Shown: one piece after another, positions 36,091 to 49,945 of the stretch
Numbering within the stretch: position 1 is the stretch's first letter
How the letters are laid out: the number at the start of each line of letters is the position of its first letter
Source of the DNA: Thermodesulfovibrio sp.
GTDB lineage: Bacteria; Nitrospirota; Thermodesulfovibrionia; UBA6902
Length of the DNA: 64,000 nucleotides
NCBI GenBank assembly: GCA_026982355.1
Contig: JALSHG010000046.1
Location: forward strand, 5,314 to 69,313
Direction: 5' to 3'
Notes under the pieces: model-generated
What the model was told of the DNA's origin: nothing
Databases searched by the model: none
The model's input: the letters and a program-made list of their open reading frames with translations, nothing else
Position numbers and translations under genes: made by a program

Positions 36091-37329
36091 TCAGAAAAAC
36101 GTTACATTTCCCTCTTCTTCTGCAGGGCCCGTCCCATGGGGACCGCAACCACCGGTCGCTGATATGTCAAGTGCCTCCCGAGCCATTTTCCTTTCATGTT
36201 CCATAGTATAAAGAGCTTTAAGCTCCCTGAATATCTCATCTTTTATTCCGATCTGGTTCAAATTATACTCTATCTTTTCCGAGCCGAGCAAGGCATCAAT
36301 ATCTTCTCTGATTCTGCTTATCGCCTCAATTATATGCGATGTCATCTGTTTTGTTATATCTTCAAACTGCATATTAAACGTTATCTCCTTGATTTCTTCT
36401 TTGATTTTGTCCACTGACTGCATTGACGAACCGGTGATATCATTGAATTTTAATGTTGACTCTTTTATGGCATCAAAAACCGTTGCTACTATATTCTGGA
36501 CATCCCTTATCTTCATCTCCTCACTGCTTGCTGTATTCCTGATTTGATCGCCGATCCGGACAACATATTCATTAAGACCCTTGATCTCTTTTTTTATTAC
36601 AGAGGCCTGTTCTGCGGATTTTGCGGCAAGTTTTCTGACCTCGTCAGCAACTATTGCGAATCCTGCACCATATTCACCGGCTCTCGCTGCCTCAATGGAT
36701 GCATTAAGCGCAAGCAGGTTTGTCTGATCTGCGATCTCCGCAACATTATCAGAAAACGGAAGTATGTTGTCCAATACATTATCCATATTTTCAGCATATT
36801 CAGCAGCACTCTTGTATCTTTCAACGCTAACCAACAGTCTCTGCACGGTATCAGTTCCCAATGCCGTGACTTTTTCGAGAACTTTAGGCATATCCGGACA
36901 AATATTCTCCTGTTTCAGGCAGGACTGCAGATCTCTCTTGCAGTTCTCCAGGGCAGATCCTTCAATCGATTGAAGAGAAATGCACATCTTGAATATGGAC
37001 GCCCTGTTAAGGTTCTTAATTTCCTCGATTTGATGTACCAGGTCTGAAAAGCTCCTGACCACCTGTACCGACGACCCTTCTATCCTGTTGCTGGCGCTTA
37101 CAAGCTGACTTTCAACAACAGAAAGAATTTCTTTCGACGTCAAGGCATTTTTCTGAAATGATACGATCAGCTCTGCAATCCCTTTGATATGTTGTCTCTG
37201 TGCCTCACGGTATTCCATGAATTCGTCATTCAGACGCAACTTGTCGTTTCTGCACTTTCTCCATGCAACAACAGCGATTGTAAGCACAGCAATCAGGAAA
37301 ATGTTTATTATCCACAAATAAATATTCAC
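36091..37329 (-). CDS. methyl-accepting chemotaxis protein (membrane-anchored)
   Basis: N-terminal TM helix; signalling-domain signature [37 protein letters not shown]; last gene of the che operon (ATGA overlap with cheA). Confidence 0.9.
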   Translation of the reverse strand: MNIYLWIINIFLIAVLTIAVVAWRKCRNDKLRLNDEFMEYREAQRQHIKGIAELIVSFQKNALTSKEILSVVESQLVSASNRIEGSSVQVVRSFSDLVHQIEEIKNLNRASIFKMCISLQSIEGSALENCKRDLQSCLKQENICPDMPKVLEKVTALGTDTVQRLLVSVERYKSAAEYAENMDNVLDNILPFSDNVAEIADQTNLLALNASIEAARAGEYGAGFAIVADEVRKLAAKSAEQASVIKKEIKGLNEYVVRIGDQIRNTASSEEMKIRDVQNIVATVFDAIKESTLKFNDITGSSMQSVDKIKEEIKEITFNMQFEDITKQMTSHIIEAISRIREDIDALLGSEKIEYNLNQIGIKDEIFRELKALYTMEHERKMAREALDISATGGCGPHGTGPAEEEGNVTFF

Positions 37330-40214
37330 TGATTTCCCCCTCCGGCAGACCGGAAAAGCCTTTCCGGATTTAATATCAGGACCACACTTCCATCACCGAG
37401 AATACTGACCCCGCCGATAATATCTATCATAGAGAGACTATCAGGGACGGGCTTTACGGCAAGCTCCATTTTTTTGTGTAACCTGTCTACAACCAGTGCA
37501 AACTTGGCTGTGCCTGTCTTTAATATGACAACCGGAATTTCCACATCATTTTTCAGTTTATCCCTGCCATTGCCCGTCCCGCTAAGCATGTCACCCAGCC
37601 TTACAGCATGTAATACCTCGTTGCGGCAGTGAAACAATATGTTGTTTCTGTGCTTCCTCAGTTTATTTGTTGTTATCTTTACTGTTTCAACTACGTAATC
37701 CAGGGGTAATGCATACAGCTTACCGTCAGCCTCCACAAGGAGGGCATCGTTTATTCCCATGGTCGTAGGAATGCTGAGGGTTATCTCTGACCCGTTGCCT
37801 TCCTCAGAAACCACTCCAACATCTCCACCAAGAGAAAGCACGGCCGTTTTTACCACGTCCATGCCCACCCCTCTCCCTGAAACATCGGTGACCTCCTTTT
37901 TCGTAGAAATACCGGGCATAAATATATAGTCAAGCAAATTATCATCATCAGGGGAGTCGGCATCAAAACCCATGCTCTTGGCTTTCTCAAAAAGCTTCTC
38001 TCTGTTTACTCCCCTTCCGTCATCAGTAACTCGGATGACAAGATTGCTGCCTTCCTGGGACGCATAAAGAATCACATTGCCTCTTTCAGGCTTTCCTGCC
38101 GCTCTCCTTTCGTCTGGGCCCTCTATTCCATGGTCACATGCATTCCGCACAAGATGGATTAGAGGGTCGGAGAGTTTGTCAGCCACCTGCTTATCTACTT
38201 CGGTATCATCTCCTTCGGTAATAAAATCTATCATCTTGTTCTGTTTTCTTGATATATCCCTTACAACTCTGCTGAATTTCTGGAATATACTTTTAACCGG
38301 AACCATCCTGAGAGACATTACACCATGGTGCATATCATTTGTAACCCTTGCAAGGAGATACATGTTGTCCTTGAGTGACTTGATCATTGATGGCGTAACT
38401 TTGCCTTTTGAAGCAATCTGCGATATAAGATGTTCAAACGTATTTTTTGAGACAAGGAGTTCTCCGGTCATGTCCGAAAGACGTTCTATCTTGCTTTCTT
38501 CAACCCGCATGGTCCTTGTCTCCGGTGTTGCTGATGATCTGGCACGGCCGGCACGATCCATAATTTCATGCTTCCTGACCGCTTCCCCCATGTCTTTTTC
38601 GCCGACATTGTTTTCATCGGTGAGTATCCGGCCTATCTTCTCCTGTCTGGAAAGGGCATCCCTTACATCCTTTTCTGAGACCTTGCCGTCCCTGACCAGT
38701 ATCTCTCCAAGTCTGAGACGCCCCTTCCCGACACCTTCAATGAATATGCTAATGTCCTCCACCGCCTTTAAAACTAACGTGTCATCTGTGCCGCCGATCG
38801 TGCCTAAGGCCTTTTGTATAAGAATGTTCAGTTCTCCGATTTTCATGAAACTTGCAGCTTTGTCCAGACCCTCGAGAGCCCTCCTTACTATCTTTGCCCT
38901 GCAGGAATCCAGCGGCAGAGGCTTAATGTTGTCCCGGAGTATGTCTATATACTGCCTTGCCTGCATTAAAAAAACCTTTTCGGATCCATCCGGCAACAGA
39001 GACACTCGCCCGGCTACCGCTTCGTCCTTTTCTCCAAGATGCCTGCATATACGATCCTGGATACTATGGTGTGATACATGCATATTGTTTTCAATACCGC
39101 TTATCATCTCCTTAAACGCATCGGTACCGGCAAGAAGTGTATCTACGATCTCGGGCGACCTTTTGATCTCGCCTTTGCGGAGACGCTCGAGCAGTGTCTC
39201 TAAAGAATGGGCGACTTCCTTCAGCCCTTTGAGTCCTGTGCATCCCGCATCACCCTTTATGGTATGAACAGCCCTGAACACCTCATTAAGGGCATCCTGA
39301 GAGTCCGTCTTTTCATAATGCATGATAGCTCTTTCCATTGATTCCAGCATGTCGCTGCTGCCTATCAGAAATTCTTTAAGCAGATCCTTGTCGATTCCTT
39401 CCTTACCGGAACAAGTCTTTTCCCCGTCTGTCTTCTCATCAGAGATTCTCAGTTTCCTTATCTCTATCAAGGACGGATCAAAGGACAGATTTTTCAGTTC
39501 TTCCAAGCCCGCATCTGTTGCGACATAAATTGTCGGCTTAAGGCACAGATCAAGCGCCTTAAACTTACTGAGAACCGGGACGGTATGTTCATACGGCTCT
39601 ACATAATAAAACTTAGAGGATTCCCTAAGATTACGAAGCAGAACCAATGGGTCAAATCCGTTTCTAAAGACATCCGATGTATAATTAACCTTGATACGGT
39701 AAATGTTCAGTCCTTTAGACGAGTGGGCTCTGAACTGTTCTTTCAGCCTGCGCGGCACGGCTGGTGACGGCTCGGGCCTTTTTGTTTCTCCTTTATGGAC
39801 CGCACTTTCACTGCTCTTTTTGACGGCCTGGTTTCTTTCACATATGTCTTTGAAACGCCGCATCAGTGTTCTGTCAACGCAGGCTTCGCCTCCGTCGGCA
39901 AGGGTCTCGATCATAAGACTTATATGATCAAACCCTTCGAGAATCACATCTACAATATCAGGTTTCAACAGCAATCTGCCGTTCCTCAAGGCATCGAGCA
40001 GGCCCTCCAGTCCATGCGTGAATTCAGATATTTCACCAAGATCAAACGTCCCGGCACTTCCCTTTATGGTGTGCACTCCCCTGAAAATGGAATTCAGGAT
40101 TTCCTCGTTCCCGGGGTCAGCTTCAACGCGCAATAGATCGTCATTGGCCTTTTCAAGGATGTCTCTTGCTTCATCATAAAACTGTCTCTTGTATAGTTCC
40201 ACATCTGTAGTCAT
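37326..40214 (-). CDS. cheA: chemotaxis histidine kinase CheA with two Hpt domains, dimerisation, HATPase and C-terminal CheW-like domain
   Basis: Hpt signatures FRGVHTIKGSAGTFDL and FRAVHTIKGDAGCTGL; HLVRNACDHGIE, GRGVGMDVV ATPase boxes; CheW-like C-terminus. Start set at the ATG at 40214 (AAGGGGGAAAAG RBS) rather than the upstream ATG at 40238. Confidence 0.9.
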   Translation of the reverse strand: MTTDVELYKRQFYDEARDILEKANDDLLRVEADPGNEEILNSIFRGVHTIKGSAGTFDLGEISEFTHGLEGLLDALRNGRLLLKPDIVDVILEGFDHISLMIETLADGGEACVDRTLMRRFKDICERNQAVKKSSESAVHKGETKRPEPSPAVPRRLKEQFRAHSSKGLNIYRIKVNYTSDVFRNGFDPLVLLRNLRESSKFYYVEPYEHTVPVLSKFKALDLCLKPTIYVATDAGLEELKNLSFDPSLIEIRKLRISDEKTDGEKTCSGKEGIDKDLLKEFLIGSSDMLESMERAIMHYEKTDSQDALNEVFRAVHTIKGDAGCTGLKGLKEVAHSLETLLERLRKGEIKRSPEIVDTLLAGTDAFKEMISGIENNMHVSHHSIQDRICRHLGEKDEAVAGRVSLLPDGSEKVFLMQARQYIDILRDNIKPLPLDSCRAKIVRRALEGLDKAASFMKIGELNILIQKALGTIGGTDDTLVLKAVEDISIFIEGVGKGRLRLGEILVRDGKVSEKDVRDALSRQEKIGRILTDENNVGEKDMGEAVRKHEIMDRAGRARSSATPETRTMRVEESKIERLSDMTGELLVSKNTFEHLISQIASKGKVTPSMIKSLKDNMYLLARVTNDMHHGVMSLRMVPVKSIFQKFSRVVRDISRKQNKMIDFITEGDDTEVDKQVADKLSDPLIHLVRNACDHGIEGPDERRAAGKPERGNVILYASQEGSNLVIRVTDDGRGVNREKLFEKAKSMGFDADSPDDDNLLDYIFMPGISTKKEVTDVSGRGVGMDVVKTAVLSLGGDVGVVSEEGNGSEITLSIPTTMGINDALLVEADGKLYALPLDYVVETVKITTNKLRKHRNNILFHCRNEVLHAVRLGDMLSGTGNGRDKLKNDVEIPVVILKTGTAKFALVVDRLHKKMELAVKPVPDSLSMIDIIGGVSILGDGSVVLILNPERLFRSAGGGNQ

Positions 40215-40232
40215 GGCTTTTCCCCCTTGCAA

Positions 40233-40440
40233 GGGCATAAAACACCGGCGGCTCCGGGCGGGAGAGCCTGCCTGAAAAGTTTTACATGCAATTCCTCAAC
40301 TGAATATTCCCCACGGCATATTGCCGTCTTGATCAATTTTATTTTCCGTTACGTTCTGCAACAAAGGCATGTTACCAACATCCCATCGCTTTATAAAGAT
40401 TTTACGCCGGACTCCGCTGCCGGCTTATGCAACATTGAGG
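40233..40440 (-). repeat. MITE-like element, long form, inverted orientation (copy j), between cheY and cheA
   Basis: The reverse complement reads cGTTGCcTcAATGTTGCATAAGCCGGCAGcgGAGTCCGgCGTAAAAtCTTTATAAAGCGATGGGATgTTGG...tcaggcaggctctcccGCCcGgAGccGccGGTGTTTTATGCcCtTG. Co-linear with copy f, including the internal module. Confidence 0.85.
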
Positions 40441-40447
40441 CAACGTT

Positions 40448-40813
40448 TCACCCGATTATTTTCCTGACAACACCCAGCAGTGCATCCGGCTTGAAGGGTT
40501 TGACCATCCACGCCTTAACCCCGGCATCTTTTCCCTCCTGTTTTTTCCCGTCCTCACTCTCTGTAGTCAACATGACTATGGGGACGAATTTGAATGCAGG
40601 CAATGACTTTAGTGCCTTCACAAATTCAATGCCGTTCATATTCGGCATATTGAGGTCTGTTATTACCATAGACACCTTTTTCCCCTGCAATCTGTTCAGC
40701 GCCTCCTTCCCGTCCGATGCCTCTATTACTTCGTAGCCGCTGTTCCTGAGCGTCATAGCAACCAGTCCCCTCATGGACACTGCATCATCAACTATTAATA
40801 AAGTCTTTGCCAT
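40448..40813 (-). CDS. cheY: chemotaxis response regulator CheY
   Basis: 121 aa; LLIVDDAVSMR...VITDLNMPNMNG...KPF; single receiver domain. Confidence 0.9.
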   Translation of the reverse strand: MAKTLLIVDDAVSMRGLVAMTLRNSGYEVIEASDGKEALNRLQGKKVSMVITDLNMPNMNGIEFVKALKSLPAFKFVPIVMLTTESEDGKKQEGKDAGVKAWMVKPFKPDALLGVVRKIIG

Positions 40814-40909: not shown

Positions 40910-41191
40910 TCAGGGCATATCGATTCCATATAAATTGAAAATTTCTCTTACTGTCTCAGGCATTTCCGATATTGAAAATTTCCCGCCAGATTCCTTTGAT
41001 GATATCATCAGTGAAAGAAGCAGTTGAAAATAGGCTGTATCCATCTCCTCAACGTCTCTTGCATTAACCTCTATATTTTTTACAGCCTTAAGCAAGGGCT
41101 GAAGTTTTTCAGTGTCAGCTTCTACTTCGGCTATAGTGCATTCCCTCTCCAGCGTAACAGTAACCCTGTTTTTATTTTTTTTCAGTTTCAT
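40910..41191 (-). CDS. STAS domain protein (anti-sigma-factor antagonist-like) in the che operon
   Basis: 93 aa; ...VNARDVEEMDTAYFQLLLSLMISSKESGGKFSISEMPETVREIFNLYGI matches STAS topology; overlaps the upstream receiver gene by 4 nt. Confidence 0.6.
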   Translation of the reverse strand: MKLKKNKNRVTVTLERECTIAEVEADTEKLQPLLKAVKNIEVNARDVEEMDTAYFQLLLSLMISSKESGGKFSISEMPETVREIFNLYGIDMP

Positions 41192-41553
41192 TGCCCTTCT
41201 CCCAGAAGCATTTTTATATGAAGGGCCAGATCAGCGGGCTTTACCGGCTTTACAACGTAAATGTTTGCCCCTGCTTCAAAGCCCTTTCTCCTGTGCACGG
41301 TCTCTTCCTGTGTTGAAATAATGATGATGGGAGTTTCTCTTTCCTCTTCCCGATACTTTGAAATAAAGGTCAGGCCATCCATATTGGGCATGTTAATATC
41401 ACACAGTATAAGGTCATAGTCGTTCGAAAGGGCCTTCTCAAGAGCCTCTATCCCGTCTCCTGCACCGTCTGCCATGAATCCGGACGTTTTTAATATATTC
41501 ATGTGAAAACTCCTGACCACCTTTGAATCATCCACTACAAGCACCTTTTTCAT
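41188..41553 (-). CDS. CheY-like single-domain response regulator
   Basis: 121 aa; VLVVDDSKVVR...LILCDINMPNMDG...KPVKP receiver motifs. Confidence 0.88.
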   Translation of the reverse strand: MKKVLVVDDSKVVRSFHMNILKTSGFMADGAGDGIEALEKALSNDYDLILCDINMPNMDGLTFISKYREEERETPIIIISTQEETVHRRKGFEAGANIYVVKPVKPADLALHIKMLLGEGQ

Positions 41554-41559
41554 TATTCC

Positions 41560-42432
41560 CTACTCCTTCATGTAAACCAAGTAATCCCCGGCCTTTCTGA
41601 CCTTGAAGGCTGTATTGATCCGCCCTACGGACTCACTTGAACCAAGGAAGATATATCCTCCTTTATTAAGGGCTATATAGAAATGGTCTACAACCTGTTT
41701 TCTCGATACATCGTCAAAGTATATAAGCACATTACGGCAGAATATGAAGTCATAGCCTCTCATCTTCCTCATCGCGGCCCTATCCGCAAGGTTGAGATGT
41801 TCAAGTCTTACAAGCTTTTTCACCTCATCACGCAGCCTGTGTGCCCCGTTCAGTCCGCTGTCAAAATATCGTTTGCGGTATTCACCGGGAACGTTCTTCA
41901 CACTCCTGTCGCCGTAGACTGCAAAACGGGCCTTGCTGAGTATATCCATGTCTATATCTGTTGCCGTTATTTCTATATCCCACTCACTGATATCGTCGAG
42001 CATTTCAAGGAGAATAATGGCGAGTGTGTACGGCTCTTCACCGCTGGAACATGCCGCAGACCATATTCTCAGACTCCTGTCACCTGCATAAGCCTTTCTC
42101 TCCGTAACATCCACAAGGGCATGTTCCGCAAAGCTCTGCAACTGGGGGAAGTCCCTGAAAAAGTATGTTTCGTTTATTGTCAGCAGATTCAACAGGTTCT
42201 GCATTTCCATCCCGTCACTGTCAAGAAACCTGAGAAATCTGATATATTCAGAAGGACTTTCCATGCCGAGTTTGTCAAGCCTCTGTTTCACCCTTTTGGA
42301 GAGGAAGTAAATCTTCCTGGACTCAAGCCATATTCCTGCTTTCCTGTATATAAAATCACTCAGCCTCTTATAATCCTCGGCGGTCAATTCCATATTGGCC
42401 GCTCTGTATGCTGTTCTTGCCATTTTATTCAC
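41560..42432 (-). CDS. cheR: chemotaxis protein methyltransferase CheR
   Basis: 290 aa; ETYFFRDFPQLQSF, SAACSSGEEPYTLAI, FCRNVLIYFD motifs. Confidence 0.93.
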   Translation of the reverse strand: MNKMARTAYRAANMELTAEDYKRLSDFIYRKAGIWLESRKIYFLSKRVKQRLDKLGMESPSEYIRFLRFLDSDGMEMQNLLNLLTINETYFFRDFPQLQSFAEHALVDVTERKAYAGDRSLRIWSAACSSGEEPYTLAIILLEMLDDISEWDIEITATDIDMDILSKARFAVYGDRSVKNVPGEYRKRYFDSGLNGAHRLRDEVKKLVRLEHLNLADRAAMRKMRGYDFIFCRNVLIYFDDVSRKQVVDHFYIALNKGGYIFLGSSESVGRINTAFKVRKAGDYLVYMKE

Positions 42433-43492
42433 CTATAACATCTGTACAAAATTCCCTCAGGTCTTCATCGTCCGTATTTTCCATGAAGGACTTTATTCTC
42501 TCCTTGGCCCTGTTCGTGCCGCTTTTTGCGAGCAATTTTATTCCTGAATGGCTAATGCCGTCATAAAGAAGGTTTAGTCCCAGTTTATAAAGCACATTCC
42601 GGGAAACATCGGAAAAGCTCTCATTCAACAGATACTCCACAGCCTGAATACGAATCTCTTCACATATCCATCTGTCGCCTGCAATCTTTATCAGTTTGTC
42701 GATTGCTTCGTCGCACGCCGCACCATCTTTGAAGCGTTTTATTGTTTCTCCGATCAGTTCGATTATATTTTCACTATATGCGCTTATGTCATCTATGTTC
42801 CCCATCAATGTCTTTATATCTTCCAGATTCCCGCTCTTTGCAATGAACGCCGTTACTTCGGGAAGATACAGAGGATCTGTGTTTTTTATTTCTCCTCCCG
42901 GGATGACTATATCCATCGCCCGTCTGATGTGATCATTGCCACCCATTTGTGATATGACCTTCAGTATAGTGATACGCAGCATGGGCTCTGTGTCGTTTGC
43001 CAAGAGGTCGAGAATATCGTTCAGGCTGTCCCTGTCATTAAGCCTGCCCAGATATTCCACTGCCGTTATCCTGACATTCGGGGCATCATCATGCAGAAGC
43101 GCCCTTATGGCCAACCTGGCATCAGGCGTGCCTATTTCGACTATGGCGTCAAGCATGAGTTTCCTGACTTCCTTATCTGTATGATCAAGTTTTTCCCCGA
43201 GATAGTAAAGGGCATTTTCCCCACCTGCACCGAAGATGCTCAAAGCCGCATTTCTCATGAATGCTTCCGGTGAACTGAACATATCAAAGAGCATTCCGTA
43301 TGCCTCCGAACAGTCCATTCTCTTAAGGGCAAAGACTATAGAGTCTTTTACTGCCCGGGAATCTTCTCTTGCCAGTCTCTCCACAAGGTGGACGGCACCT
43401 TCCGGATCGCCAGACTCGAGGATATCTTCCACTGCATAGAGCCTTTCGGCTTCATCATTGCTGTTTAATGCCGTTATAATAAGTTCGTCCAT
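42425..43492 (-). CDS. HEAT-repeat (PBS-lyase type) protein associated with the che cluster
   Basis: 355 aa of repeating ...VRxxAxxALGxIGxxxA... HEAT units (e.g. DAPNVRITAVEYLGRLND, KEVRKLMLDAIVEIGTPDA). Confidence 0.7.
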   Translation of the reverse strand: MDELIITALNSNDEAERLYAVEDILESGDPEGAVHLVERLAREDSRAVKDSIVFALKRMDCSEAYGMLFDMFSSPEAFMRNAALSIFGAGGENALYYLGEKLDHTDKEVRKLMLDAIVEIGTPDARLAIRALLHDDAPNVRITAVEYLGRLNDRDSLNDILDLLANDTEPMLRITILKVISQMGGNDHIRRAMDIVIPGGEIKNTDPLYLPEVTAFIAKSGNLEDIKTLMGNIDDISAYSENIIELIGETIKRFKDGAACDEAIDKLIKIAGDRWICEEIRIQAVEYLLNESFSDVSRNVLYKLGLNLLYDGISHSGIKLLAKSGTNRAKERIKSFMENTDDEDLREFCTDVIGE

Positions 43493-43503
43493 TTTTCTCC
43501 CCC

Positions 43504-44592
43504 TTAAGTTCCCGAGACCGCTTTGACGATCTCATCGGCAATCAGCCAGCTTGGCGCCACTACCCGGGCACCTCCGCGTTCAATGGCCTCACGGGGCATG
43601 CCGTACACTATGGCACTTTCTTCACTTTCAGCTATGGTTATTCCACCGTTCGCTGTTATCTTCACCATACCGGCGGCCCCGTCATCACCCATGCCGGTCA
43701 TCAACACCCCGACCGTGCCGGAACCAAAGACATCAAGAACAGATTCCATCATAATATCCACAGAAGGGAGAAAGGTATGAACAGGTTTTGTAGGGGTCCG
43801 CAGGATGATTTTTCCTGTCAGTTTCTTATAGACAGTCATATGACAGCCTGCTTTGCCGATATAAATGCTGCCGGGTTCGACCACCATGCCAGCCTCTGCC
43901 TCCACACATCTTAAAGGACAGCTTGAATCAATACGTTTTGCAAATGTACTCGTAAAACCGGTGGGCATATGTTGTACAACAAATATTGCTGCATTCAGGT
44001 CAGCAGGAATGAAAGGAAGCACCTCAAATATGGTCTTGGGTCCCCCCGTGGATATGCCTATCGCTACTGCCTTGAAATCCCGAGTGTCTGATGATACTGC
44101 TTCTCTCTCTCGTCTGTTTATCTGCTTGCTCTGATGCAGAGAAGCCTTCCTGATGATATCCGGTTTTTTCCGTCGGAGTTTTTTTATGGTATCTTTCCCG
44201 GAGGCAGCCTTTATCTTTGAGATAAGCTCGTCTTCAACAGTCCTCATGTCTTTTGTTACAGTACCTTCCGGTTTCCCCACATAATCAAAAGCTCCGAGCG
44301 CCATTGCCTCAAAGGTAGCGGTCGCTCCCTCCTGTGTAAGCGAAGAAACCATTATAACAGGAGCAATGGCCTCCTCCACTATTATCTGGAGCGCAGTGAT
44401 ACCATCAATCCCCGGCATGTTTATATCCATTGTTATTACATCGGGGCGAAGCTCTCTGGCCTTTGTTATGGCATCTTCCCCGTCTCTTGCCATGCCGGCC
44501 ACATAAAGCCCCGGAGCCGACTCGATAATTTTTCTCAGCACCTTACGCATAAGGGCTGAATCATCACATATAAGCACTCCGATCTTTCCCAT
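43504..44592 (-). CDS. cheB: chemotaxis response regulator protein-glutamate methylesterase CheB
   Basis: 362 aa; N-terminal receiver (VLICDDSALMR...VITMDINMPGIDG), C-terminal methylesterase (IAIGISTGGP, catalytic-triad context). Confidence 0.93.
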   Translation of the reverse strand: MGKIGVLICDDSALMRKVLRKIIESAPGLYVAGMARDGEDAITKARELRPDVITMDINMPGIDGITALQIIVEEAIAPVIMVSSLTQEGATATFEAMALGAFDYVGKPEGTVTKDMRTVEDELISKIKAASGKDTIKKLRRKKPDIIRKASLHQSKQINRREREAVSSDTRDFKAVAIGISTGGPKTIFEVLPFIPADLNAAIFVVQHMPTGFTSTFAKRIDSSCPLRCVEAEAGMVVEPGSIYIGKAGCHMTVYKKLTGKIILRTPTKPVHTFLPSVDIMMESVLDVFGSGTVGVLMTGMGDDGAAGMVKITANGGITIAESEESAIVYGMPREAIERGGARVVAPSWLIADEIVKAVSGT

Positions 44593-44624
44593 AGCTCATC
44601 TCTTCCCATCTCTCGAAGTTTAAC

Positions 44625-44702
44625 TTTGCAGTTGCATAAAATACCGGCGGCTGAGCAGGGGAGTAAGGTTTTCCGGCAGACTCCTCTGCCCGTTTATGCA
44701 AT
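44625..44702 (+). repeat. MITE/REP-like element, short form (copy k), between the cheW3 gene and cheB
   Basis: cagTTGCATAAAataCCGGCGGctGAGCAGGGGAGTaaggttttccggCAGACTCCTCTGCCCGTTTATGCAAt. Confidence 0.75.
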
Positions 44703-44715
44703 ATTTAGACAACGG

Positions 44716-46749
44716 CTAACATCTTTTCAGCTTTTTATTTCGCGAGTTGTTTGTTTTTTCTGTTCCGGTTTTTGTCTTTTCACCTTCTGGCGCTACAACT
44801 TTTGTCTTTTTCTGCGCTGTATTTTGCGTTTCTTCTGCTGTAATCATCCCTTTTACGTCAGATTCTGTTTGTTTTCCCAGCTTGGCAAGCAGCTTCACTT
44901 CATTTTCATTGAATATCATGCCGAGATCAAGGAGCAAAACTATTCTCCTGCCCTCATCAAGTTTGCAAAGACCATTTATAAATCTGCTTTCTGCATTGGA
45001 TGAAATTATCGAAGGTGTATTCTCTATGTCACTCTTCAATACCGTGAGCACCTCATTTACCTGATCGACTCTCAGTCCCGTCTTCTTGCCTGCAATATCT
45101 GCTATGATGACCCGCGTCCTGTCGTCCACATCATTTTCTTCAAGACCAAAGAGTTTACGGATATTTACTACAGGTATCACATTACCCCGCAGGTTCGTGA
45201 CCCCATCGATAAAAAACGGAGCTCTCGGTACACTCATGACCCCTTCCGGACGATTAATCTCCCGAACATCCACGATGCGAAGGCCGTACTCTTCATCACC
45301 AACAGAGAACGTTACAAGCTGCTCTTCATCCATGCTATCTTCAGCAGACGGTTTTTCCCCTGACCCGGAATTTTCATCAGCGCAGGCGTCACCTGCGGCT
45401 GCCTGTCTGATTATCTCTTCACTTTTCGGAGAGATCAGCGAGGTCTCGTCAATGATCATAATAAGCCTATCCCCTCCATCAAGCTTTGCCACGCCTTTAA
45501 GCTCTTTTTTCTGCGTGGAGACTATTTCAGGGGCTTCATCTATTACTGATTTTAAGATACGGGATACTTCGTTAACGCTATCGACCAGATAACCAACCAT
45601 AAATGTTCCGCTCATTACCACAAGCACCCTCTGGTCTTCGGTTATGTTTTCTTCGATGGATTTTTTCAAGTTGGCAAATCCTTCGAGAACCATTTCCATC
45701 AGAACGCGTGTCTCTTTTTCAAAACATTCAAGTGCTTCTTCGCCGCAGGTCTTGCGCAGATTTATTGTCTTTTCGGCACTGGCGTGAACAAGCGCGTGCG
45801 GTCTCTTCAATCTCTTTATGGCGGTCTGTATTTCCTCGCTTGCAGTATTGTAGTGCTCGAGCCACTTCCCGTAAGAGCATTTTCTCGGATTCATTGTGCC
45901 CTCAAAAGGTGTCCCTGCATCCAGGGAGTGCTTGAGGGTCTCCAGCCATCTCCGGTGTTCATGCTCCATTGCGTCAATAGCTGCTATGCGCTCTTCACTC
46001 AAGTCGGGCAAACCCAGGAGCCTCCTGAGATCGATAACTGGTATTAATTGATCACGAATGGTAAACAACCCCCTTACGTAATCCGGAACATTGGGAACAG
46101 GGGTGATATTCTTGACCTTGAGTATCTCTCTGACTTTTTCAATGTCGAAGGCATATTCCTCTCCTGATACGTGAAACGAGACCAACTGTTCCTCATCCAC
46201 AGATTCCTTATGGGCATCATTTTCCCTCCCATCACAACCCTTACCATCAAGCATATTTTCATTCTTGGATATGTCGACCTTGATAACTTCAGCAAGATTA
46301 AGAGTCAATATCAGCCGCCTGCCCCCGTCCATTTTCACGACACTATCCAGAAATTCCCTGTCAATTCCTTTGCACACTGCTGGGGGATGTTCCACAAGGG
46401 CGTCGCTCATCCGTGTTACTTCTCTCATTTTATCAACCACAAGCCCTGCATTTATACCGTCGTTTTCCACAATCAGCAGGCGGGTATCTTCGGTTTTTTC
46501 GTGCCTTTCCATTGCAAACCGTATTCGCGTATCAATCACGGGCAAGATACCACCGCGCAGGTTGCACACCCCTGATACATAGTCAGGACTTCTTGGTATC
46601 GGGGTCACTTCCGGCAGACGCACGATTTCCCGGACATTGTGAATATTCACGCCGAATTCCACATCATTAAGCTTAAACACAACCAATTGTCCTTCTTTCG
46701 AAGCCATTGTTATTCCCATATCAGATTCACACGTTGTATTTTCGGGCAT
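44716..46749 (-). CDS. triple CheW-domain scaffold protein with a CZB (chemoreceptor zinc-binding) domain embedded in the second CheW domain
   Basis: Three CheW-like blocks (LVVFKLNDVEFGVNIHNVREIV..., LVSFHVSGEEYAFDIEKVREIL..., LVTFSVGDEEYGLRIVDVREIN...). Inserted H-x3-W...C-S-Y-G-K-W...H-x3-H segment (HEHRRWLETL...KCSYGKWLEHY...HALVH) = CZB motif. Confidence 0.75.
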   Translation of the reverse strand: MPENTTCESDMGITMASKEGQLVVFKLNDVEFGVNIHNVREIVRLPEVTPIPRSPDYVSGVCNLRGGILPVIDTRIRFAMERHEKTEDTRLLIVENDGINAGLVVDKMREVTRMSDALVEHPPAVCKGIDREFLDSVVKMDGGRRLILTLNLAEVIKVDISKNENMLDGKGCDGRENDAHKESVDEEQLVSFHVSGEEYAFDIEKVREILKVKNITPVPNVPDYVRGLFTIRDQLIPVIDLRRLLGLPDLSEERIAAIDAMEHEHRRWLETLKHSLDAGTPFEGTMNPRKCSYGKWLEHYNTASEEIQTAIKRLKRPHALVHASAEKTINLRKTCGEEALECFEKETRVLMEMVLEGFANLKKSIEENITEDQRVLVVMSGTFMVGYLVDSVNEVSRILKSVIDEAPEIVSTQKKELKGVAKLDGGDRLIMIIDETSLISPKSEEIIRQAAAGDACADENSGSGEKPSAEDSMDEEQLVTFSVGDEEYGLRIVDVREINRPEGVMSVPRAPFFIDGVTNLRGNVIPVVNIRKLFGLEENDVDDRTRVIIADIAGKKTGLRVDQVNEVLTVLKSDIENTPSIISSNAESRFINGLCKLDEGRRIVLLLDLGMIFNENEVKLLAKLGKQTESDVKGMITAEETQNTAQKKTKVVAPEGEKTKTGTEKTNNSRNKKLKRC

Positions 46750-46792
46750 TTCAACACCTCCATTTCATTGATAATAAACATCATCGCGACTA

Positions 46793-48736
46793 CTACTGCA
46801 TATTCTGCATTTCATCTGCCTGGCTTGATATATCCTCGATAGCCTCGGAGATATTCTGCATGCCCTTGCTGCCTTCCTCTGCCGCCCTTGCCGCTTCTTC
46901 AGCCGCCCGCCTGCTCTCAGCAGCACCTTCCTTTATCTGTTTGACAGCCGTGTTGGCCTGTTCAATAGCCGCCAGGATTTCCGACGTGTTGCTGTTAATC
47001 TCTGCGATTTCTTCATGAACAGTCTCGGTCTCTTTTTCAATAGCTTTAAGGTTTGTCGTTGATGTTTTGGCGTTTTCAACTTCCCGGGAAGCTGTCTTTC
47101 CTGCATGGTTAATATTAGCTGAAGCTTGGATTATCTGGTGTTGCATGTTTCTCACCATATCCTTTATCTTGTCAGCATTCTCTGATGATTCGTTCGCCAG
47201 CGTCCGGATATCGCCTGCGACAACGGAAAACCCCCTTCCAAATTCCCCTGCGCGTGCCGCCTCTACCGAGCCGTTTACGGCCAACATGTTTGTCATCAGG
47301 GTGACATTTACTATCTGATCCACTATTTTGTTGATATTGTTTGTTTTGTCCTCAAGTATGCGGATGTTATCAGAGGACTTACCGGATTTTTCAGCCATTT
47401 CCCCGATACTTGCAATCATGGTATCAATATTATTCTTATTTTTTGTAAGCAATTCCTTGAGCGCCGATATCTTTTCAGCCGATTCTTCGGCTGTATCACT
47501 TGTGCTCTTAGCAGAATCTTTAATCCGCCTGCCTAATTCTTCACTCTCGTTTGCCCTTTTTTCTTGTATCACGGCTGCCCTCGATATCTGTTCTATGGCG
47601 ACCGTTATCTGTTTTGCAGCATTGGTTGCCTCTTCAATGTTGGCGGAGAGTTCTTCGGCTGATGCGGCTATTTCTTCCGCGGATTTCTGGATGTCTGTGG
47701 AGTTTTTAAGTGAATCGGTAAGTTCGGCAAGTTCATTTGAAGCAATCTGCATCTCTGAAAATGCCTTATTCTGCTCCTGTATAGCCTTTGAAGATTCCTC
47801 TGCAGAGCTGGACGCCTCCTCAGCACCTGCGGCTATTTCTTCCGCACTTTTCAGCAACTCTCCGGCTGCTGATTGCATGTCAGCGGCTTTATGGGTTATT
47901 TCCTCACAGCTCTTTACAACACTATCAAAATCTCTGTCAATCTGATTAAGTTCAAGAATTATTGACTCTGCCTTCTCGGCTTCTTCCCTTGCAAGTCTGC
48001 CGGTGCTTTCCACATCCGCCACAACCTGCTGAACCTGCTGTTGTATATCATCGACTACCTCTCTAATGCCCCTTGCGCTTCCCTCGGAGGTCTCTGCCAG
48101 ATTCCTTACTTCATCTGCAACAACTGCAAAACCCCTCCCATGCTCACCTGCACGTGCTGCCTCGATCGCTGCATTGAGAGCAAGGAGGTTTGTCTGGTCG
48201 GCAATGCGGACAACAGCGCCAACAATATCACCAATCTCTTCTGAATGTTTCTCCAGCTCTTTTATCATTTCTGTAGACTTTATGTTTACCTTGGCTGCAT
48301 CGCCCACTCCTTTTATCAAAGCCCTGATATCGACTACCGTCGTGCGGACCAGTTCCTGCAGTTTTCTCCCGTTATCAAGAGAACGTTTCGCTCTTTCTGC
48401 TGCTATTACTGAAGACTTTTCGATCTGGCTGATTGCCGCCCTCGTTTGTTCGGAGGCTGAGGATGCCTGCTCAGCAGCACTCGCTATGGATTGCATATTT
48501 TTCCCTAACTGCTCGGAAGCACTTCCGGCCTCTTCAAGAGACGACGCCATTTCCTCGACAGCAGCAGCCAATCTTTCAGCAAGTTGCTGCTGTCGAGCAA
48601 GGGTCCGTGCCTTAGCCTTTTCCTGCGCCAATCGTTTTGCCTCCTCCCTCTTTCTTGTCATGTCGCCGTTTCCATCTTCTTTTACCGCTCCTATACCTTT
48701 GTTGATTACATCGGGTGATAATAATTTTTTTGCCAT
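46793..48736 (-). CDS. soluble methyl-accepting chemotaxis protein with two tandem signalling (MA) domains
   Basis: 647 aa, no TM segment. Two complete highly conserved MCP cores: [38 protein letters not shown] and [35 protein letters not shown], each flanked by heptad-rich methylation-helix-like sequence. Confidence 0.85.
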
Positions 48737-48849
48737 ATCTTCTCCTCCTTAGCCCCAACACGGTGCTTTGTTTACGATGATAATGTCTATGGTTTTGAGT
48801 GAAGTTGTATTACACTGCATGGTGATGGTGTTTATCCCGCAAGTGGCCA

Positions 48850-48900
48850 TAGCGAAACCCCACCTTGAAAATGTAGCATAAGGAAACCGCGGCATAAAGC
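48850..48900 (+). repeat. MITE-like remnant (copy l)
   Basis: ACCTTgaaaatgtaGCATAAggaAACCGCgGCATAAAGCGCAGCAG; decayed right-end-like fragments. Confidence 0.35.
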
Positions 48901-48996
48901 GCAGCAGAGTATCAATTCTATAAATATTAATGCCTCTGCGCGGTATTAAAACAGGGAAAAATGGAACGGCAAAAAAAGTGAAGTGAGAATACTTTT

Positions 48997-49058
<62 letters not shown>

Positions 49059-49451
49059 AAAAGTCATGCCAAAACTTACATCTGGTCCATATTTGTTTAA
49101 TAAATTGTTATCTGTATGCATGTTTCAAATTATTTTTTGAAATCGAAAATAAAGCCTATCATCCGCCGTTAAAATAAATTCTTCATTTCCTGTAACAATC
49201 CCTTGCATATCTTTACGCTCTGACATAAATTAGTTTTCTTATTACGGCAGTTTTTCGGAAAACTTTACCAGAAAATTTACCTGCTTTGCTATTTTTTTGA
49301 CCGCCTTCCAAAGGAAATGGAAATGGGAAAGGTGTAGGGGCAACAACCAGAGTCTGACCTCCCTGAGCGTGACAACAGTAATGGGAGGTAAGGACAAGGG
49401 ACGGATCAGGAAATCCCGCGGCGGGGATGCACGAGGGATTCGATTACACAA

Positions 49452-49486
49452 CGGCAAAAAGGCGTCCTGAAATATCAGGACGCCTT
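49452..49486 (-). terminator. rho-independent terminator downstream of rplQ
   Basis: Minus strand reads AAGGCGTCCTGAtatttCAGGACGCCTTTTTGCCG: 11-bp stem plus T-run, 35 nt after the rplQ stop. Confidence 0.75.
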
Positions 49487-49519
49487 GTCAACATTGTCTC
49501 GGAAGTCTCTGGAAAAAGT

Positions 49520-49945
49520 TTATTTGTCTTTTTTCTCTTCCTTCTTCGCCTTTTTACGCTCCTTCTTTTCTTCCTTGGCCCCCTTCAACAGGTCATAATC
49601 GACAAATTCAAGAACAGCCATGGACGCGTTGTCGCCGACACGGTTCCGTGTCTTCAGTATCCTCAGGTAACCGCTCTCCCTTGTAATCTTCGGCGCTATC
49701 TCATTAAACAGCTTTGTTATCACCCTGTTGTCGGGAATGCGGGACAGCGCCAGCCTCCTTGAGCTCAAATCTCCTTTTCTTCCGAGGGTGATCACACGCT
49801 CCGCCAGCCTCCTCGCCTCTTTTGCCTTGGCCACCGTCGTCTCTATCCTGAGATGTTCAAACAGCGATATAACAAGCCCGCGTAACAGGGCCTTTCTCTG
49901 ATTGGTGTTCCTGTGGAATCTCCTTCCCGCCACTCTATGTCGCAT
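49520..49945 (-). CDS. rplQ: 50S ribosomal protein L17
   Basis: 141 aa MRHRVAGRRFHRNTNQRKALLRGL...; L17 signature; lysine-rich tail. Confidence 0.95.
   Translation of the reverse strand: MRHRVAGRRFHRNTNQRKALLRGLVISLFEHLRIETTVAKAKEARRLAERVITLGRKGDLSSRRLALSRIPDNRVITKLFNEIAPKITRESGYLRILKTRNRVGDNASMAVLEFVDYDLLKGAKEEKKERKKAKKEEKKDK

What the first reader, a model, noticed from the sequence alone, without database searches (positions are those of the whole stretch)
44716..46749. CheW-CheW-CheW scaffold with a CZB zinc-binding domain inserted inside the middle CheW domain
There are three CheW-like domains in one 677-aa protein. The second is interrupted by about 210 residues. These contain the CZB signature HxxxW...(about 25 aa)...CSYGKWLEHY...HALVH (Hx3[WFYL], then C-x-[LFMVY]-G-x-W, then Hx3H). 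CZB domains sense Zn2+ or oxidants such as hypochlorite, usually in MCPs or diguanylate cyclases. Placing CZB within a CheW coupling scaffold would feed a redox or metal signal directly into the receptor-kinase array.
Basis: partly seen in the sequence, partly recalled or inferred. Interest (0 to 1): 0.6.

Follow-up and report, generated by a model that had tools for sequence, protein, structure and literature searches.

The report
Triple-CheW scaffold with embedded zinc sensor
This gene encodes the triple-CheW scaffold of an "F9" cytoplasmic chemoreceptor array, and its middle CheW domain is split by a complete zinc-binding CZB sensor domain, which suggests a way for this poorly understood signalling system to receive a metal or redox signal through its scaffold rather than its receptors.

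Summary
ORF 44716-46749 (-) encodes 677 aa with three CheW domains. A CZB domain (Pfam 36.7 bits, cut-off 29.4) splits the middle one at its midpoint. The insert is about 120 aa, not about 210, and the first ligand motif is HxxW, not Hx3W. H265, C291, H318 and H322 align with the zinc ligands of E. coli DgcZ, and the AlphaFold model's best non-CheW PDB match is the DgcZ CZB domain.

Context changes the reading. The gene follows a 647-aa receptor with two signalling tips (DosM-like), and the cluster is colinear with Vibrio cholerae cluster I. This is therefore the CheW3 scaffold of an F9-class cytoplasmic array.

The insert is family-wide: at least 401 homologs, with relatives in 455 species genomes. 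Only 27 of the 120 best homologs keep all four ligands. The rest keep the insert with substituted ligands. Basal F9 scaffolds lack it.

Single CheW proteins split by CZB at the same site are common, so this topology is typical of the catalogued, unstudied "CheW-CZB" class.

Both parents (CheW3, CheW-CZB) are known. I found no description of the combination. Verdict: a new variant of a known kind. The zinc/redox switch mechanism is inferred, not shown.

The parts
44716..46749 (-). CheW3::CZB scaffold gene, 677 aa plus stop codon
   Evidence: ORF. Pfam CheW x4 stretches plus CZB. 100% identical to database protein P0001 on a 71-kb contig.
46279..46695 (-). CheW domain 1 (residues 19-157)
   Evidence: Full-length PF01584 match at 115.5 bits. 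AF2 beta-barrel with pLDDT above 90.
45994..46197 (-). CheW domain 2, N-terminal half (residues 185-252)
   Evidence: PF01584 profile positions 1-65, 77.1 bits. This is the most conserved segment of the family, with mean pairwise identity 0.72.
45634..45993 (-). CZB insert (residues 253-372): helices 250-278, 292-299, 305-334 and 336-372
   Evidence: PF13682 at 36.7/40.9 bits against GA 29.4. AF2 pLDDT about 95. Foldseek top PDB hit is 3t9o_B, the DgcZ CZB domain. Profile against 3T9O gives E=8.8e-6.
45955..45957 (-). His265 codon, predicted Zn ligand 1 (HxxW268)
   Evidence: Aligns with DgcZ H22. Invariant in ligand-complete inserts. Codon verified.
45859..45879 (-). C291-S-Y-G-K-W-L297 motif, containing predicted Zn ligand 2 and redox-active Cys291
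   Evidence: Aligns with DgcZ C52 in CQFGRW. G294 and W296 are nearly invariant across the whole family. Verified.
45784..45798 (-). H318-A-L-V-H322, predicted Zn ligands 3 and 4
   Evidence: Aligns with DgcZ H79/H83. Verified.
45430..45633 (-). CheW domain 2, C-terminal half (residues 373-440)
   Evidence: PF01584 profile positions 67-134, 35.4 bits. In the AF2 model strand 374-380 follows helix 336-372 with a single non-helical residue between them.
44905..45330 (-). CheW domain 3 (residues 474-615)
   Evidence: Full-length PF01584 match at 118.9 bits.
44719..44904 (-). C-terminal helix (615-638) and disordered Lys-rich tail
   Evidence: AF2 secondary structure and pLDDT below 50 after residue 638. 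The family consensus ends in a Lys-rich tail.
46793..48736 (-). DosM-like soluble receptor, 647 aa, with two MCP signalling tips 300 aa apart, no sensor domain and no TM segment
   Evidence: Two MCPsignal stretches. Tips at residues 193 and 493. Maximum 19-residue hydropathy 1.08. A double-tip MCP lies directly upstream of the scaffold gene in nearly all 73 related loci.
43504..44592 (-). CheB methylesterase with receiver domain
   Evidence: Pfam.
42425..43492 (-). HEAT-repeat protein. It occupies the conserved unknown slot ('.') between CheB and CheR in F9 clusters, which is VC1400 in V. cholerae
   Evidence: Pfam HEAT_2. Gene-order tables.
41560..42432 (-). CheR methyltransferase
   Evidence: Pfam.
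41188..41553 (-). CheY-like response regulator
   Evidence: Pfam.
40448..40813 (-). Second CheY-like response regulator
   Evidence: Pfam.
37326..40238 (-). CheA kinase, 970 aa (two Hpt stretches, dimerisation domain, HATPase, P5/CheW)
   Evidence: Pfam.
36091..37329 (-). Short MCP, 412 aa, with one N-terminal TM helix. Positional counterpart of VC1394
   Evidence: Pfam MCPsignal. Hydropathy 2.68 at residue 3. VC1394 topology as described in PMC7534058.
48737..49520 (-). Upstream non-coding region of the cluster: terminator of the rpoA-rplQ operon, an AT-rich spacer and a (CT)29 microsatellite at 48999-49056
   Evidence: Sequence read. GC 0.415 and repeat coordinates.

Best explanation
Shown:
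- The protein is the concatenated triple-CheW scaffold (CheW3) of an F9-class chemosensory system. In Vibrio cholerae this class builds flat, two-layered, purely cytoplasmic receptor arrays held together by the double-tipped receptor DosM.
- The window carries the whole cluster in the canonical order: DosM-like, CheW3, CheB, unknown (HEAT), CheR, CheY, CheY, CheA, MCP.
- In this lineage the middle CheW domain carries a complete CZB four-helix zinc-binding domain. It is inserted in the surface loop that corresponds to E. coli CheW D79-T86, at the midpoint of the CheW profile.
- In the AF2 model both ends of the CZB bundle run almost directly into CheW2 beta-strands.

Inferred mechanism:
1. Zn(II) bound by H265, C291, H318 and H322 keeps the bundle ordered.
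2. Loss of Zn, caused by a fall in labile zinc or by oxidation of the Cys291 thiolate, would loosen the alpha2-alpha3 region. It would also change the dynamics of the first and last helices, as described for DgcZ.
3. Both of those helices are anchored in CheW2. The change would therefore act on the geometry of the CheW2 barrel pair and on how it couples receptor tips to CheA P5 in the baseplate.
4. This would modulate kinase output, and possibly lattice stability.

The scaffold would then supply a sensory input to an array whose main receptor (DosM) has no sensor domain. The effector is more likely intracellular zinc or redox state than HOCl specifically. The source is an environmental organism placed tentatively in Nitrospirota by RpoA, and the scaffold's homologs come mostly from Desulfobacterota.
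For: - Domain calls and split topology.
- Ligands aligned with DgcZ H22/C52/H79/H83, at E=8.8e-6.
- Confident models (insert pLDDT about 95; insert-only pTM 0.86).
- DgcZ CZB (3t9o_B) is the top PDB fold match for the insert and the first non-CheW match for the whole protein.
- The AF2 model shows helix 336-372 leading into strand 374-380, and only 5 residues between helix 241-244 and helix 250-278. The connections are therefore short and look rigid.
- F9 identity rests on several results. The adjacent 647-aa MCP has two tips. The cluster is colinear with VC1394-VC1403 and with the [DosM W3 B. R Y A. Y M] order of 72 species. The DosM-CheW3 pair recurs in nearly all 73 related loci.
- Ligands are strictly kept in 27 of 120 homologs. 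These lie on several deep branches, including the query's own clade. They are also kept in at least 90% of the 149 best CZB matches, which include many stand-alone CheW::CZB proteins.
- Literature: Cys oxidation leads to Zn release and an order-to-disorder change transmitted to the CZB terminal helices (PMC8262984).
- Literature: 98% of DosM homologs lack sensor domains, so F9 arrays need another signal input (PMC9321776).
Against: - There is no experimental evidence for Zn binding, oxidant reactivity or any effect on CheA for any CheW-CZB protein.
- 93 of the 120 closest homologs lack the complete ligand set (91 of them lack the Cys), yet all keep the insert under constraint, with their own conserved residues. 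The insert's family-wide role cannot depend on zinc and may be architectural.
I could not check the metal-site geometry, or whether the CZB points toward the receptors, toward CheA or into the cytoplasm.
- pTM for the whole protein is 0.50, so the inter-domain arrangement is undefined.
- The Cys motif has Tyr where the published motif has Leu/Phe (CSYGKWL).
- The physiological output of F9 systems is unknown even in V. cholerae (PMC7534058).
Confidence: 0.55

Rival explanations
1. The insert is mainly an architectural element of the F9 baseplate. The CZB bundle mediates CheW3-CheW3 pairing (CZB domains are dimeric in DgcZ) or contacts with another component. Zinc, where present, is a structural cofactor and not a signal.
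For: - The insert is kept in every member of a large clade, but the ligand quartet is complete in only 27 of 120.
- Ligand-less inserts are still constrained: mean identity 0.35 against 0.11-0.31 for the linkers. They have their own near-invariant residues, including K312 at 99%, F293 at 91% and W296 at 98%.
- In Cys-less inserts an acidic residue at 265 goes with Arg at 318 (odds ratio 11, p=2e-5). A salt bridge could be replacing the metal and locking the fold.
- CheW2 is the most conserved part of the protein.
Against: - All four ligands are strictly retained in several deep, diverse lineages, and in stand-alone CheW::CZB proteins. That argues for selection on metal chemistry in those lineages, the query's included.
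- The position 265/318 association is confounded by shared ancestry.
- In the two CZB proteins studied (TlpD, DgcZ), zinc is regulatory and not merely structural (PMC8262984; PMC6715182).
- The CZB dimerisation statement for DgcZ comes from my own knowledge of the 3T9O/4H54 papers and was not tested here.
Confidence: 0.3
2. The domain is specifically a hypochlorite (HOCl) sensor, as in H. pylori TlpD and E. coli DgcZ, and it drives taxis toward or away from bleach-like oxidants.
For: The conserved Zn-thiolate Cys sits in the CxxGxW motif, which is the HOCl-reactive site in TlpD and DgcZ (PMC6715182; PMC8262984).
Against: - The host is an environmental organism. Its RpoA groups with Nitrospirota MAGs, and the scaffold's homologs come mainly from Desulfobacterota MAGs, including cable bacteria. 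None of these records is from an animal-associated organism exposed to neutrophil HOCl.
- Perkins et al. themselves regard zinc binding as the ancestral function and HOCl sensing as a later adaptation.
- In their analysis CheW-CZB proteins also have a different residue at motif position 2.
Confidence: 0.1
3. The architecture is an artefact: an assembly chimera, a gene-call fusion or a decaying pseudogene.
For: None found. I considered it only because split domains and 4 CheW stretches can arise from mis-assembly.
Against: - The ORF is intact and the N-terminal Met is conserved across the family.
- The same 677-aa protein occurs on an independent 4.3-kb Logan contig.
- At least 401 homologs have the same length and layout, and relatives occur in 455 species genomes.
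- The split module also exists as a stand-alone protein.
- The AF2 model is confident through both junctions.
Confidence: 0.01

Closest known systems
CheW3 (VC1402) of the Vibrio cholerae cluster I / F9 chemosensory system
   Same: - Both are three concatenated CheW domains in one polypeptide.
- Both are encoded directly downstream of a double-signalling-domain receptor (DosM, VC1403).
- The cluster order is the same: DosM, W3, CheB, unknown, CheR, CheY, CheA, then an MCP with a TM segment.
- In V. cholerae this scaffold forms the baseplates of two-layered cytoplasmic arrays together with CheA (PMC7534058).
   Different: - The query's middle CheW is split by a 120-aa CZB domain.
- VC1402 is listed as plain 'W3' by SMART in Mo et al. 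2022. Basal F9 scaffolds in my loci (Syntrophomonas, Desulfallas, a Zetaproteobacteria MAG and others) lack the insert. I could not obtain the VC1402 sequence to check it directly.
- The query's cluster has two adjacent CheY genes, and its CheA has two Hpt stretches.
'CheW-CZB' architecture class (Perkins et al. 2021, mBio; listed as known by Muok et al. 2023)
   Same: - CheW and CZB occur in one protein, with the 3His/1Cys core.
- It is catalogued as 1.4% of CZB proteins and falls in CZB cluster III together with DgcZ.
- In the stand-alone members I examined (about 250-290 aa), CZB splits a single CheW at the same profile position, about 65-70, as in the query's CheW2.
   Different: - The query embeds this module as the middle unit of a triple CheW, within an F9 cluster.
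- The published description gives no topology in the text I could read. It does not mention multi-CheW forms or F9, and it reports the class as most abundant in Clostridia.
- No member has been studied experimentally.
E. coli DgcZ (YdeH) CZB domain, PDB 3T9O / 4H54
   Same: - It is the best solved-structure match by sequence profile (E=8.8e-6) and by fold (TM 0.62-0.71).
- All four Zn ligands align.
   Different: - In DgcZ the CZB is N-terminal and regulates a GGDEF cyclase through one connection. Here it is an internal insert tied to the regulated domain at both ends.
- Sequence identity is only about 13-14%.
H. pylori TlpD (soluble chemoreceptor with a C-terminal CZB)
   Same: Both place a CZB sensor inside a cytoplasmic chemotaxis signalling complex, and it acts on CheA through the array (PMC6715182; bioRxiv 10.64898/2026.01.16.699579).
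   Different: In TlpD the sensor is on the receptor and signals along the coiled coil over a distance of more than 140 A. Here it sits in the coupling protein, at baseplate level.
Treponema denticola CheWS (CheW fused to a CheR-like sensor domain; Muok et al. 2023)
   Same: It is the precedent for a CheW-family coupling protein that carries its own sensory domain and provides signal input at the baseplate.
   Different: The sensor domain is different (SAM-binding CheR-like against CZB). The fusion is terminal rather than an insertion. It has a single CheW domain and belongs to a membrane-bound F2 array.
DosM homologs with a CZB domain (two species, e.g. Geovibrio thiophilus; Mo et al. 2022, S6 table)
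   Same: CZB is recruited into an F9 system.
   Different: In those species the CZB is on the receptor DosM, not in the CheW3 scaffold.

Membership tests
CZB domain (Pfam PF13682; criteria of Perkins et al. 2021) | Match to the CZB profile HMM above the curated threshold | tested here: met
   36.7 bits in the whole protein and 40.9 bits for the insert alone, against a gathering score of 29.4. Profile positions 1-63 of 64 are covered.
CZB domain (Pfam PF13682; criteria of Perkins et al. 2021) | Conserved 3His/1Cys zinc-binding core | tested here: met
   H265, C291, H318 and H322 align with DgcZ H22, C52, H79 and H83 in a profile alignment to 3T9O. They are invariant in 17 ligand-complete inserts.
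CZB domain (Pfam PF13682; criteria of Perkins et al. 2021) | CX(L/F)GXW(Y/L) motif | tested here: met
   The query has C-S-Y-G-K-W-L. Six of the seven positions fit. Position 3 is Tyr instead of Leu/Phe in the query and its two closest relatives, while other family members have Leu/Phe. This is a conservative deviation, not a strict match.
CZB domain (Pfam PF13682; criteria of Perkins et al. 2021) | Helical-bundle fold like the solved CZB structure | tested here: met
   The AF2 insert model has pLDDT 94.9. The Foldseek top PDB hit is 3t9o_B (probability 1.00, TM 0.62, rmsd 3.6 A over 112 columns). From the full-length model TMt is 0.71. Foldseek E-values are weak (0.06-0.09), as is usual for helical bundles.
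CZB domain (Pfam PF13682; criteria of Perkins et al. 2021) | Actual Zn(II) binding and a response to Zn or oxidant | not testable with these tools
   This needs metal analysis and biochemistry.
CheW-like domain (PF01584), three copies | Three complete CheW profile matches in one polypeptide | tested here: met
   CheW1 115.5 bits, CheW3 118.9 bits, and CheW2 119.8 bits once the insert is removed. The structural top hits are solved CheW chains 2qdl, 6s1k_C, 8c5v_E and 2ch4.
F9 chemosensory class (Wuichet & Zhulin 2010; Mo et al. 2022) | Adjacent DosM-type receptor with two signalling domains in tandem and no sensor domain | tested here: met
   The 647-aa MCP at 46793-48736 has two MCPsignal stretches and two tip motifs, with no other Pfam domain and no TM segment.
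F9 chemosensory class (Wuichet & Zhulin 2010; Mo et al. 2022) | Concatenated triple-CheW adaptor (CheW3) | tested here: met
F9 chemosensory class (Wuichet & Zhulin 2010; Mo et al. 2022) | Characteristic gene order [DosM W3 B . R Y A (. Y M)] | tested here: met
   The window order is DosM-like, W3, CheB, HEAT protein, CheR, CheY, CheY, CheA, MCP. The only difference is that the second CheY lies before CheA rather than after it.
F9 chemosensory class (Wuichet & Zhulin 2010; Mo et al. 2022) | Receptor of heptad class 44H | tested here: inconclusive
   Tip-to-tip spacing is 300 aa, or 42.9 heptads, against the 308 aa expected for 44H. The spacing is identical in 48 of 50 related loci. Heptad-class HMMs were not available.
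F9 chemosensory class (Wuichet & Zhulin 2010; Mo et al. 2022) | CheA, CheB and CheR assigned to F9 by class-specific profiles or phylogeny | not testable with these tools
   The MiST class HMMs are not in any available library.
F9 chemosensory class (Wuichet & Zhulin 2010; Mo et al. 2022) | Forms two-layered, purely cytoplasmic arrays | not testable with these tools
   This needs cryo-electron tomography.
'CheW-CZB' architecture class (Perkins et al. 2021) | CheW-like and CZB domains in the same protein | tested here: met
   Stand-alone members share the same split-CheW topology.

The most novel reading that the evidence does not exclude
F9 cytoplasmic arrays in this lineage take their primary signal through the scaffold and not through a receptor. 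The CZB bundle embedded in CheW2 would act as a zinc/thiol switch that changes kinase coupling or the integrity of the baseplate lattice. In most of the family the metal site has been replaced by a Glu/Asp265-Arg318 pair that locks the bundle in a zinc-bound-like state. That would turn a former sensor into a permanent structural strut, giving a natural series of switchable, locked and absent versions of the same array component.
Probability: 0.25. Interest if true: 0.65.

Novelty: new variant of a known kind. Interest (0 to 1): 0.45.

Why it matters
F9 chemosensory systems occur in about 2% of complete bacterial genomes and build unusual two-layered cytoplasmic arrays. Their function and signal input are still unknown, even in Vibrio cholerae, and their signature receptor DosM has no sensor domain (PMC9321776, PMC7534058).

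A scaffold with a built-in, ligand-complete CZB domain gives a concrete hypothesis that can be tested biochemically: in some lineages zinc or redox state enters the array at the baseplate. Cable bacteria (Candidatus Electrothrix) are among those lineages.

The family also provides natural controls. Insert-less, ligand-complete and ligand-substituted versions of the same scaffold could separate the sensing role of the insert from its architectural role.

There is a practical point for annotation as well. These proteins are annotated only as "CheW". The split middle domain can be miscounted as a fourth CheW domain, which may explain the "W4" entries in Mo et al. 2022. That link is my inference.

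Tried and rejected
1. The word-indexed homolog search with the insert profile (A3) returned nothing, so that search was wasted. The exhaustive HMMER search with the same profile worked.
2. Single-sequence phmmer of the insert against the PDB gave only E=0.57 to 3T9O, with chance-level AppA BLUF hits ranked above it. I replaced it with a profile search, which gave E=8.8e-6.
3. Supplementary data of Perkins 2021 and Muok 2023 held no searchable text on CheW-CZB members or multi-CheW+CZB architectures. I could not establish whether their CheW-CZB set already includes triple-CheW proteins.
4. I could not obtain VC1402 or the two "W4" proteins. Briegel 2016 (PMC5027440) is not held. The VC1402 literature gave no length or domain map. 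The genome scan kept only the best 80 of its 455 matches, and no Vibrio was among them.
I inferred taxonomy from RpoA instead.
6. The sigma-70 promoter scan over the cluster was no better than shuffled sequence, 22 sites against 20.2 expected, so I make no promoter claim.
7. I tried to confirm the 44H class from tip spacing. The result of 300 aa (42.9 heptads) is inconclusive.
8. I rejected the artefact or pseudogene reading.
9. I rejected the idea that the insert is a coiled-coil linker without ligands.
Full report
**1. What is in the sequence**

The ORF at 44716-46749 on the minus strand encodes a 677-aa protein.

- Pfam finds CheW (PF01584) at 319.5 bits in four stretches. It finds CZB (PF13682) at 36.7 bits, above the curated 29.4-bit threshold, at residues 265-328.
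- I scanned sub-segments separately. CheW1 (residues 21-157) and CheW3 (477-615) each cover the whole CheW profile.
- The middle domain is split. Residues 188-252 match profile positions 1-65 and residues 371-439 match positions 67-134.
- Removing the intervening residues in silico restores a single continuous CheW hit of 119.8 bits.
- The insert is therefore about 118-124 residues (253-372), not about 210.
- The ligand residues are H265 (in H-x-x-W268, not Hx3W), C291 (in CSYGKWL), H318 and H322.

**2. Is the insert really a CZB domain?**

- A profile built from 17 diverse ligand-complete inserts has H, C, H and H invariant.
- That profile hits the crystal structure of the E. coli DgcZ CZB domain (3T9O) at E=8.8e-6. 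The four residues align with DgcZ H22, C52, H79 and H83.
- AlphaFold2 with a 120-sequence alignment gives a confident model. Mean pLDDT is 83, and about 95 in the insert.
- In the model the insert forms helices 250-278, 292-299, 305-334 and 336-372, and these leave and re-enter CheW2 with very short connections.
- An insert-only model has pLDDT 94.9 and pTM 0.86.
- Foldseek ranks the DgcZ CZB chain 3t9o_B first among PDB structures for the insert (TM 0.62). For the whole protein it ranks first among non-CheW structures (TMt 0.71). Solved CheW chains are the top hits overall.
- Foldseek E-values for the bundle are weak (0.06-0.09), so the fold match is supporting evidence. The identification rests on the Pfam and profile results.
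- Alignment of the insert-deleted CheW2 to E. coli CheW places the insertion between Tyr82 and Asn83. This is in the D79-T86 loop, just before the V87/V88 strand.

**3. Genomic context changes the picture**

All neighbours are on the same strand. In order of transcription they are:

- a 647-aa soluble MCP with two signalling-domain matches, two tip motifs 300 aa apart, no sensor domain and no TM segment
- the triple CheW
- CheB
- a HEAT-repeat protein
- CheR
- two CheY genes
- a 970-aa CheA
- a 412-aa MCP with one N-terminal TM helix

This matches Vibrio cholerae cluster I (VC1403 DosM, VC1402 "concatenated triple CheW", VC1401 CheB, VC1400 unknown, VC1399 CheR, VC1398 CheY, VC1397 CheA and on to VC1394 MCP) (PMC7534058). 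It also matches the [DosM W3 B. R Y A. Y M] order that Mo et al. tabulated for 72 species (PMC9321776).

DosM and CheW3 are the two signature components of the F9 chemosensory class. In V. cholerae this class forms flat, two-layered, purely cytoplasmic arrays.

In 73 related loci fetched from species-representative genomes, the scaffold gene follows a ~650-aa double-tip MCP almost without exception. The tip spacing is exactly 300 aa in 48 of 50 of these receptors.

The protein is therefore the CheW3 scaffold of an F9 system.

**4. The insert is a family trait, and the metal site is not**

- A search of 5.8 billion proteins returned 401 homologs at E<=1e-10. The best 120 are all about 590-750 aa.
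- The genome scan found relatives in 455 species. The named ones are mostly Desulfobacterota. Others are labelled KSB1, Aminicenantes, Fibrobacteres, Calditrichaceae, Verrucomicrobiales, Acidobacteriaceae and Actinomycetota.
- All 120 top homologs carry the insert, with W268, G294 and W296 nearly invariant. Only 27 of the 120 have the full H-C-H-H quartet.
- The others most often have Glu/Asp/His, Thr/Ser, Arg and Tyr/Phe at those four positions.
- I built a neighbour-joining tree from the CheW columns only. Ligand-complete sequences occupy several deep branches, including the query's clade, with scattered single losses. One large derived clade is entirely ligand-substituted.
- In the loci tree the insert-less scaffolds (Syntrophomonas, Desulfallas, Tepidanaerobacteraceae and a Zetaproteobacteria MAG) are basal. 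One insert-less subclade (L052-L055) is nested among insert-bearing ones, which suggests secondary loss.
- These are distance trees without support values, so the order of events is provisional.
- The insert evolves faster than the CheW parts (mean pairwise identity 0.35 against 0.62-0.72) but is far more constrained than the linkers (0.11-0.31).
- Ligand-substituted inserts have their own near-invariant residues, such as K312 at 99%.
- Among Cys-less inserts, an acidic residue at 265 is associated with Arg at 318 (odds ratio 11, p=2e-5). This could mean a salt bridge replaces the metal, but shared ancestry confounds the test.

**5. The split CheW::CZB module is not unique to this protein**

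- An exhaustive HMMER search of 1.84 billion cluster representatives with the insert profile found 5,350 proteins at E<=0.001 and 1,589 at E<=1e-10.
- I mapped domains locally on the best 150. A few are triple-CheW proteins. Many are ~250-290-aa proteins made of one CheW split by CZB at the same profile position (about 65-70).
- Pfam confirmed this layout fully in seven of the ten I checked, which have an N-terminal CheW half, a CZB and a second CheW stretch. In the other three Pfam resolved a single CheW stretch or only a marginal CheW match.
- The one named example is annotated as CheW from Bacteroidota / Candidatus Kapabacteria.
- The remainder of the 150 are soluble MCPs and CZB-only proteins with two to five tandem CZB repeats.
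- CZB inserted at the midpoint of CheW is therefore the recurring form of the "CheW-CZB" class.

**6. What the literature already says**

- Perkins et al. 2021 catalogued CheW-CZB as 1.4% of CZB proteins, most abundant in Clostridia.
- Muok et al. [quoted passage not shown] They suggested that CheW-fused sensor domains may be a widespread way to sense the intracellular environment.
- Only these two works (each also held as a preprint) contain the term "CheW-CZB". Neither describes the insertion topology or a link to F9 in the text I could read.
- Mo et al. 2022 surveyed F9 systems and noted CZB only in two DosM homologs. They listed two scaffolds as "W4, quadruple CheW".
- Pfam counts four CheW stretches in the query, so I infer that those W4 entries are this split architecture. 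I could not fetch those sequences to check.
- V. cholerae VC1402 is listed as W3, so it probably lacks the insert. This is also unverified.

**7. Mechanism**

Shown: the architecture, the ligand set, the fold and the F9 context.

From the literature: in DgcZ, oxidation of the zinc-binding Cys promotes Zn release and local unfolding of alpha2-alpha3. This alters the dynamics of the N- and C-terminal helices that connect to the regulated domain, in an order-to-disorder switch (PMC8262984). DosM homologs almost never have sensor domains, so F9 arrays need another input.

Inferred: both terminal helices of the CZB bundle are anchored in CheW2 through short connections. Zinc occupancy or the thiol redox state would therefore change the geometry or dynamics of the CheW2 barrel pair. 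That in turn would change receptor-CheA coupling or baseplate lattice stability.

I put about 0.55 on this switch model for the query. I put about 0.3 on a mainly architectural role in which zinc is structural. The retention of ligand-less inserts across most of the family makes that second reading a serious one. HOCl as the specific effector seems unlikely for an environmental organism.

**8. Host and origin**

- RpoA is encoded next to the cluster, on the same 71-kb database contig. Its named matches are all Nitrospirota/Nitrospirae MAGs, at 62-69% identity.
- The scaffold's nearest named relatives are Desulfobacterota, at about 55%.
- The cluster (36091-48736) has 46.1% GC, against 52.2% and 52.5% in the flanks.
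- It is separated from the rpoA-rplQ operon by a strong terminator hairpin and a 780-nt AT-rich spacer.
- Together these fit horizontal acquisition of the cluster, in line with the frequent transfer of F9 clusters reported by Mo et al.. The phylum assignment is tentative.

**9. Verdict**

Both parent architectures are already catalogued.

The protein belongs to a large family that the searchable literature does not describe: F9 CheW3 scaffolds with a CZB or CZB-derived insert. This is a new variant of a known kind.

It matters mainly because it offers a testable route for signal input into F9 arrays, together with a natural series of insert-less, ligand-complete and ligand-substituted scaffolds. 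The mechanism remains inferred.

Noticed in passing
window 48999-49056: A perfect (GA)29 / (CT)29 dinucleotide microsatellite lies about 260 nt upstream of the DosM-like start codon, in the AT-rich spacer (GC 0.415) that precedes the chemotaxis cluster. The mechanical ORF list reads it as the LSLSLS... start of a 103-aa ORF (48749-49060), which has no Pfam match and is probably not a gene. A repeat like this could vary in length by strand slippage and affect expression. I did not test that.
   Followed up: partly
window 36091-48736 compared with the flanks: The whole chemotaxis cluster has 46.1% GC, against 52.2% (1-36000) and 52.5% (49935-64000). RpoA next to it groups with Nitrospirota MAGs, while the CheW3 scaffold's closest named relatives are Desulfobacterota. 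This looks like a horizontally acquired F9 cluster.
   Followed up: partly
window 42425-43492 (-): A 355-aa HEAT-repeat protein sits between CheB and CheR. This is the position of the conserved unknown gene ('.') in F9 gene orders, which is VC1400 in V. cholerae. Its role in F9 arrays appears to be unknown.
   Followed up: no
proteins P0121, P0122, P0164 and others: The CZB profile search found soluble chemoreceptors with two to five tandem N-terminal CZB repeats (for example P0121, 1028 aa, with five CZB stretches followed by an MCP tip). It also found CZB-only proteins made of tandem repeats. Most repeats sit at regular positions near residues 55, 150 and 240.
   Followed up: no
loci L037, L041, L048: These scaffolds have Cys in place of the first His ligand (C-C-H-H quartet), so they may carry a Cys2His2 variant of the CZB site.
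   Followed up: no
loci L052-L055: A small clade of insert-less triple-CheW scaffolds (about 527-571 aa) nests inside the insert-bearing group in the distance tree. This suggests a clean secondary deletion of the CZB insert. It rests on a neighbour-joining tree only.
   Followed up: partly
loci L022, L049; proteins P0275, P0276: Ligand-complete CheW3::CZB scaffolds occur in cable bacteria (Candidatus Electrothrix marina and communis) and in Desulfobulbus sp. US4.
   Followed up: no
window 49455-49490 (-): A strong intrinsic-terminator-like hairpin (GGCGTCCTGA-TATTT-TCAGGACGCC followed by TTTTT) lies just after the stop codon of the gene downstream of rpoA, which I take to be rplQ. It marks the end of the ribosomal/rpoA operon, before the chemotaxis cluster.
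   Followed up: partly
window 49935-51095 (-): RpoA is called here as 386 aa (381 aa in the database copy), while nearly all homologs are 350-365 aa. This may be a lineage-specific extension or an upstream start-codon call.
   Followed up: no
window 44719-44904 (-), residues 616-677: The scaffold ends in a predicted helix (615-638) followed by a disordered Lys-rich tail. A Lys-rich C-terminus recurs in the family consensus. Its function is unknown.
   Followed up: no
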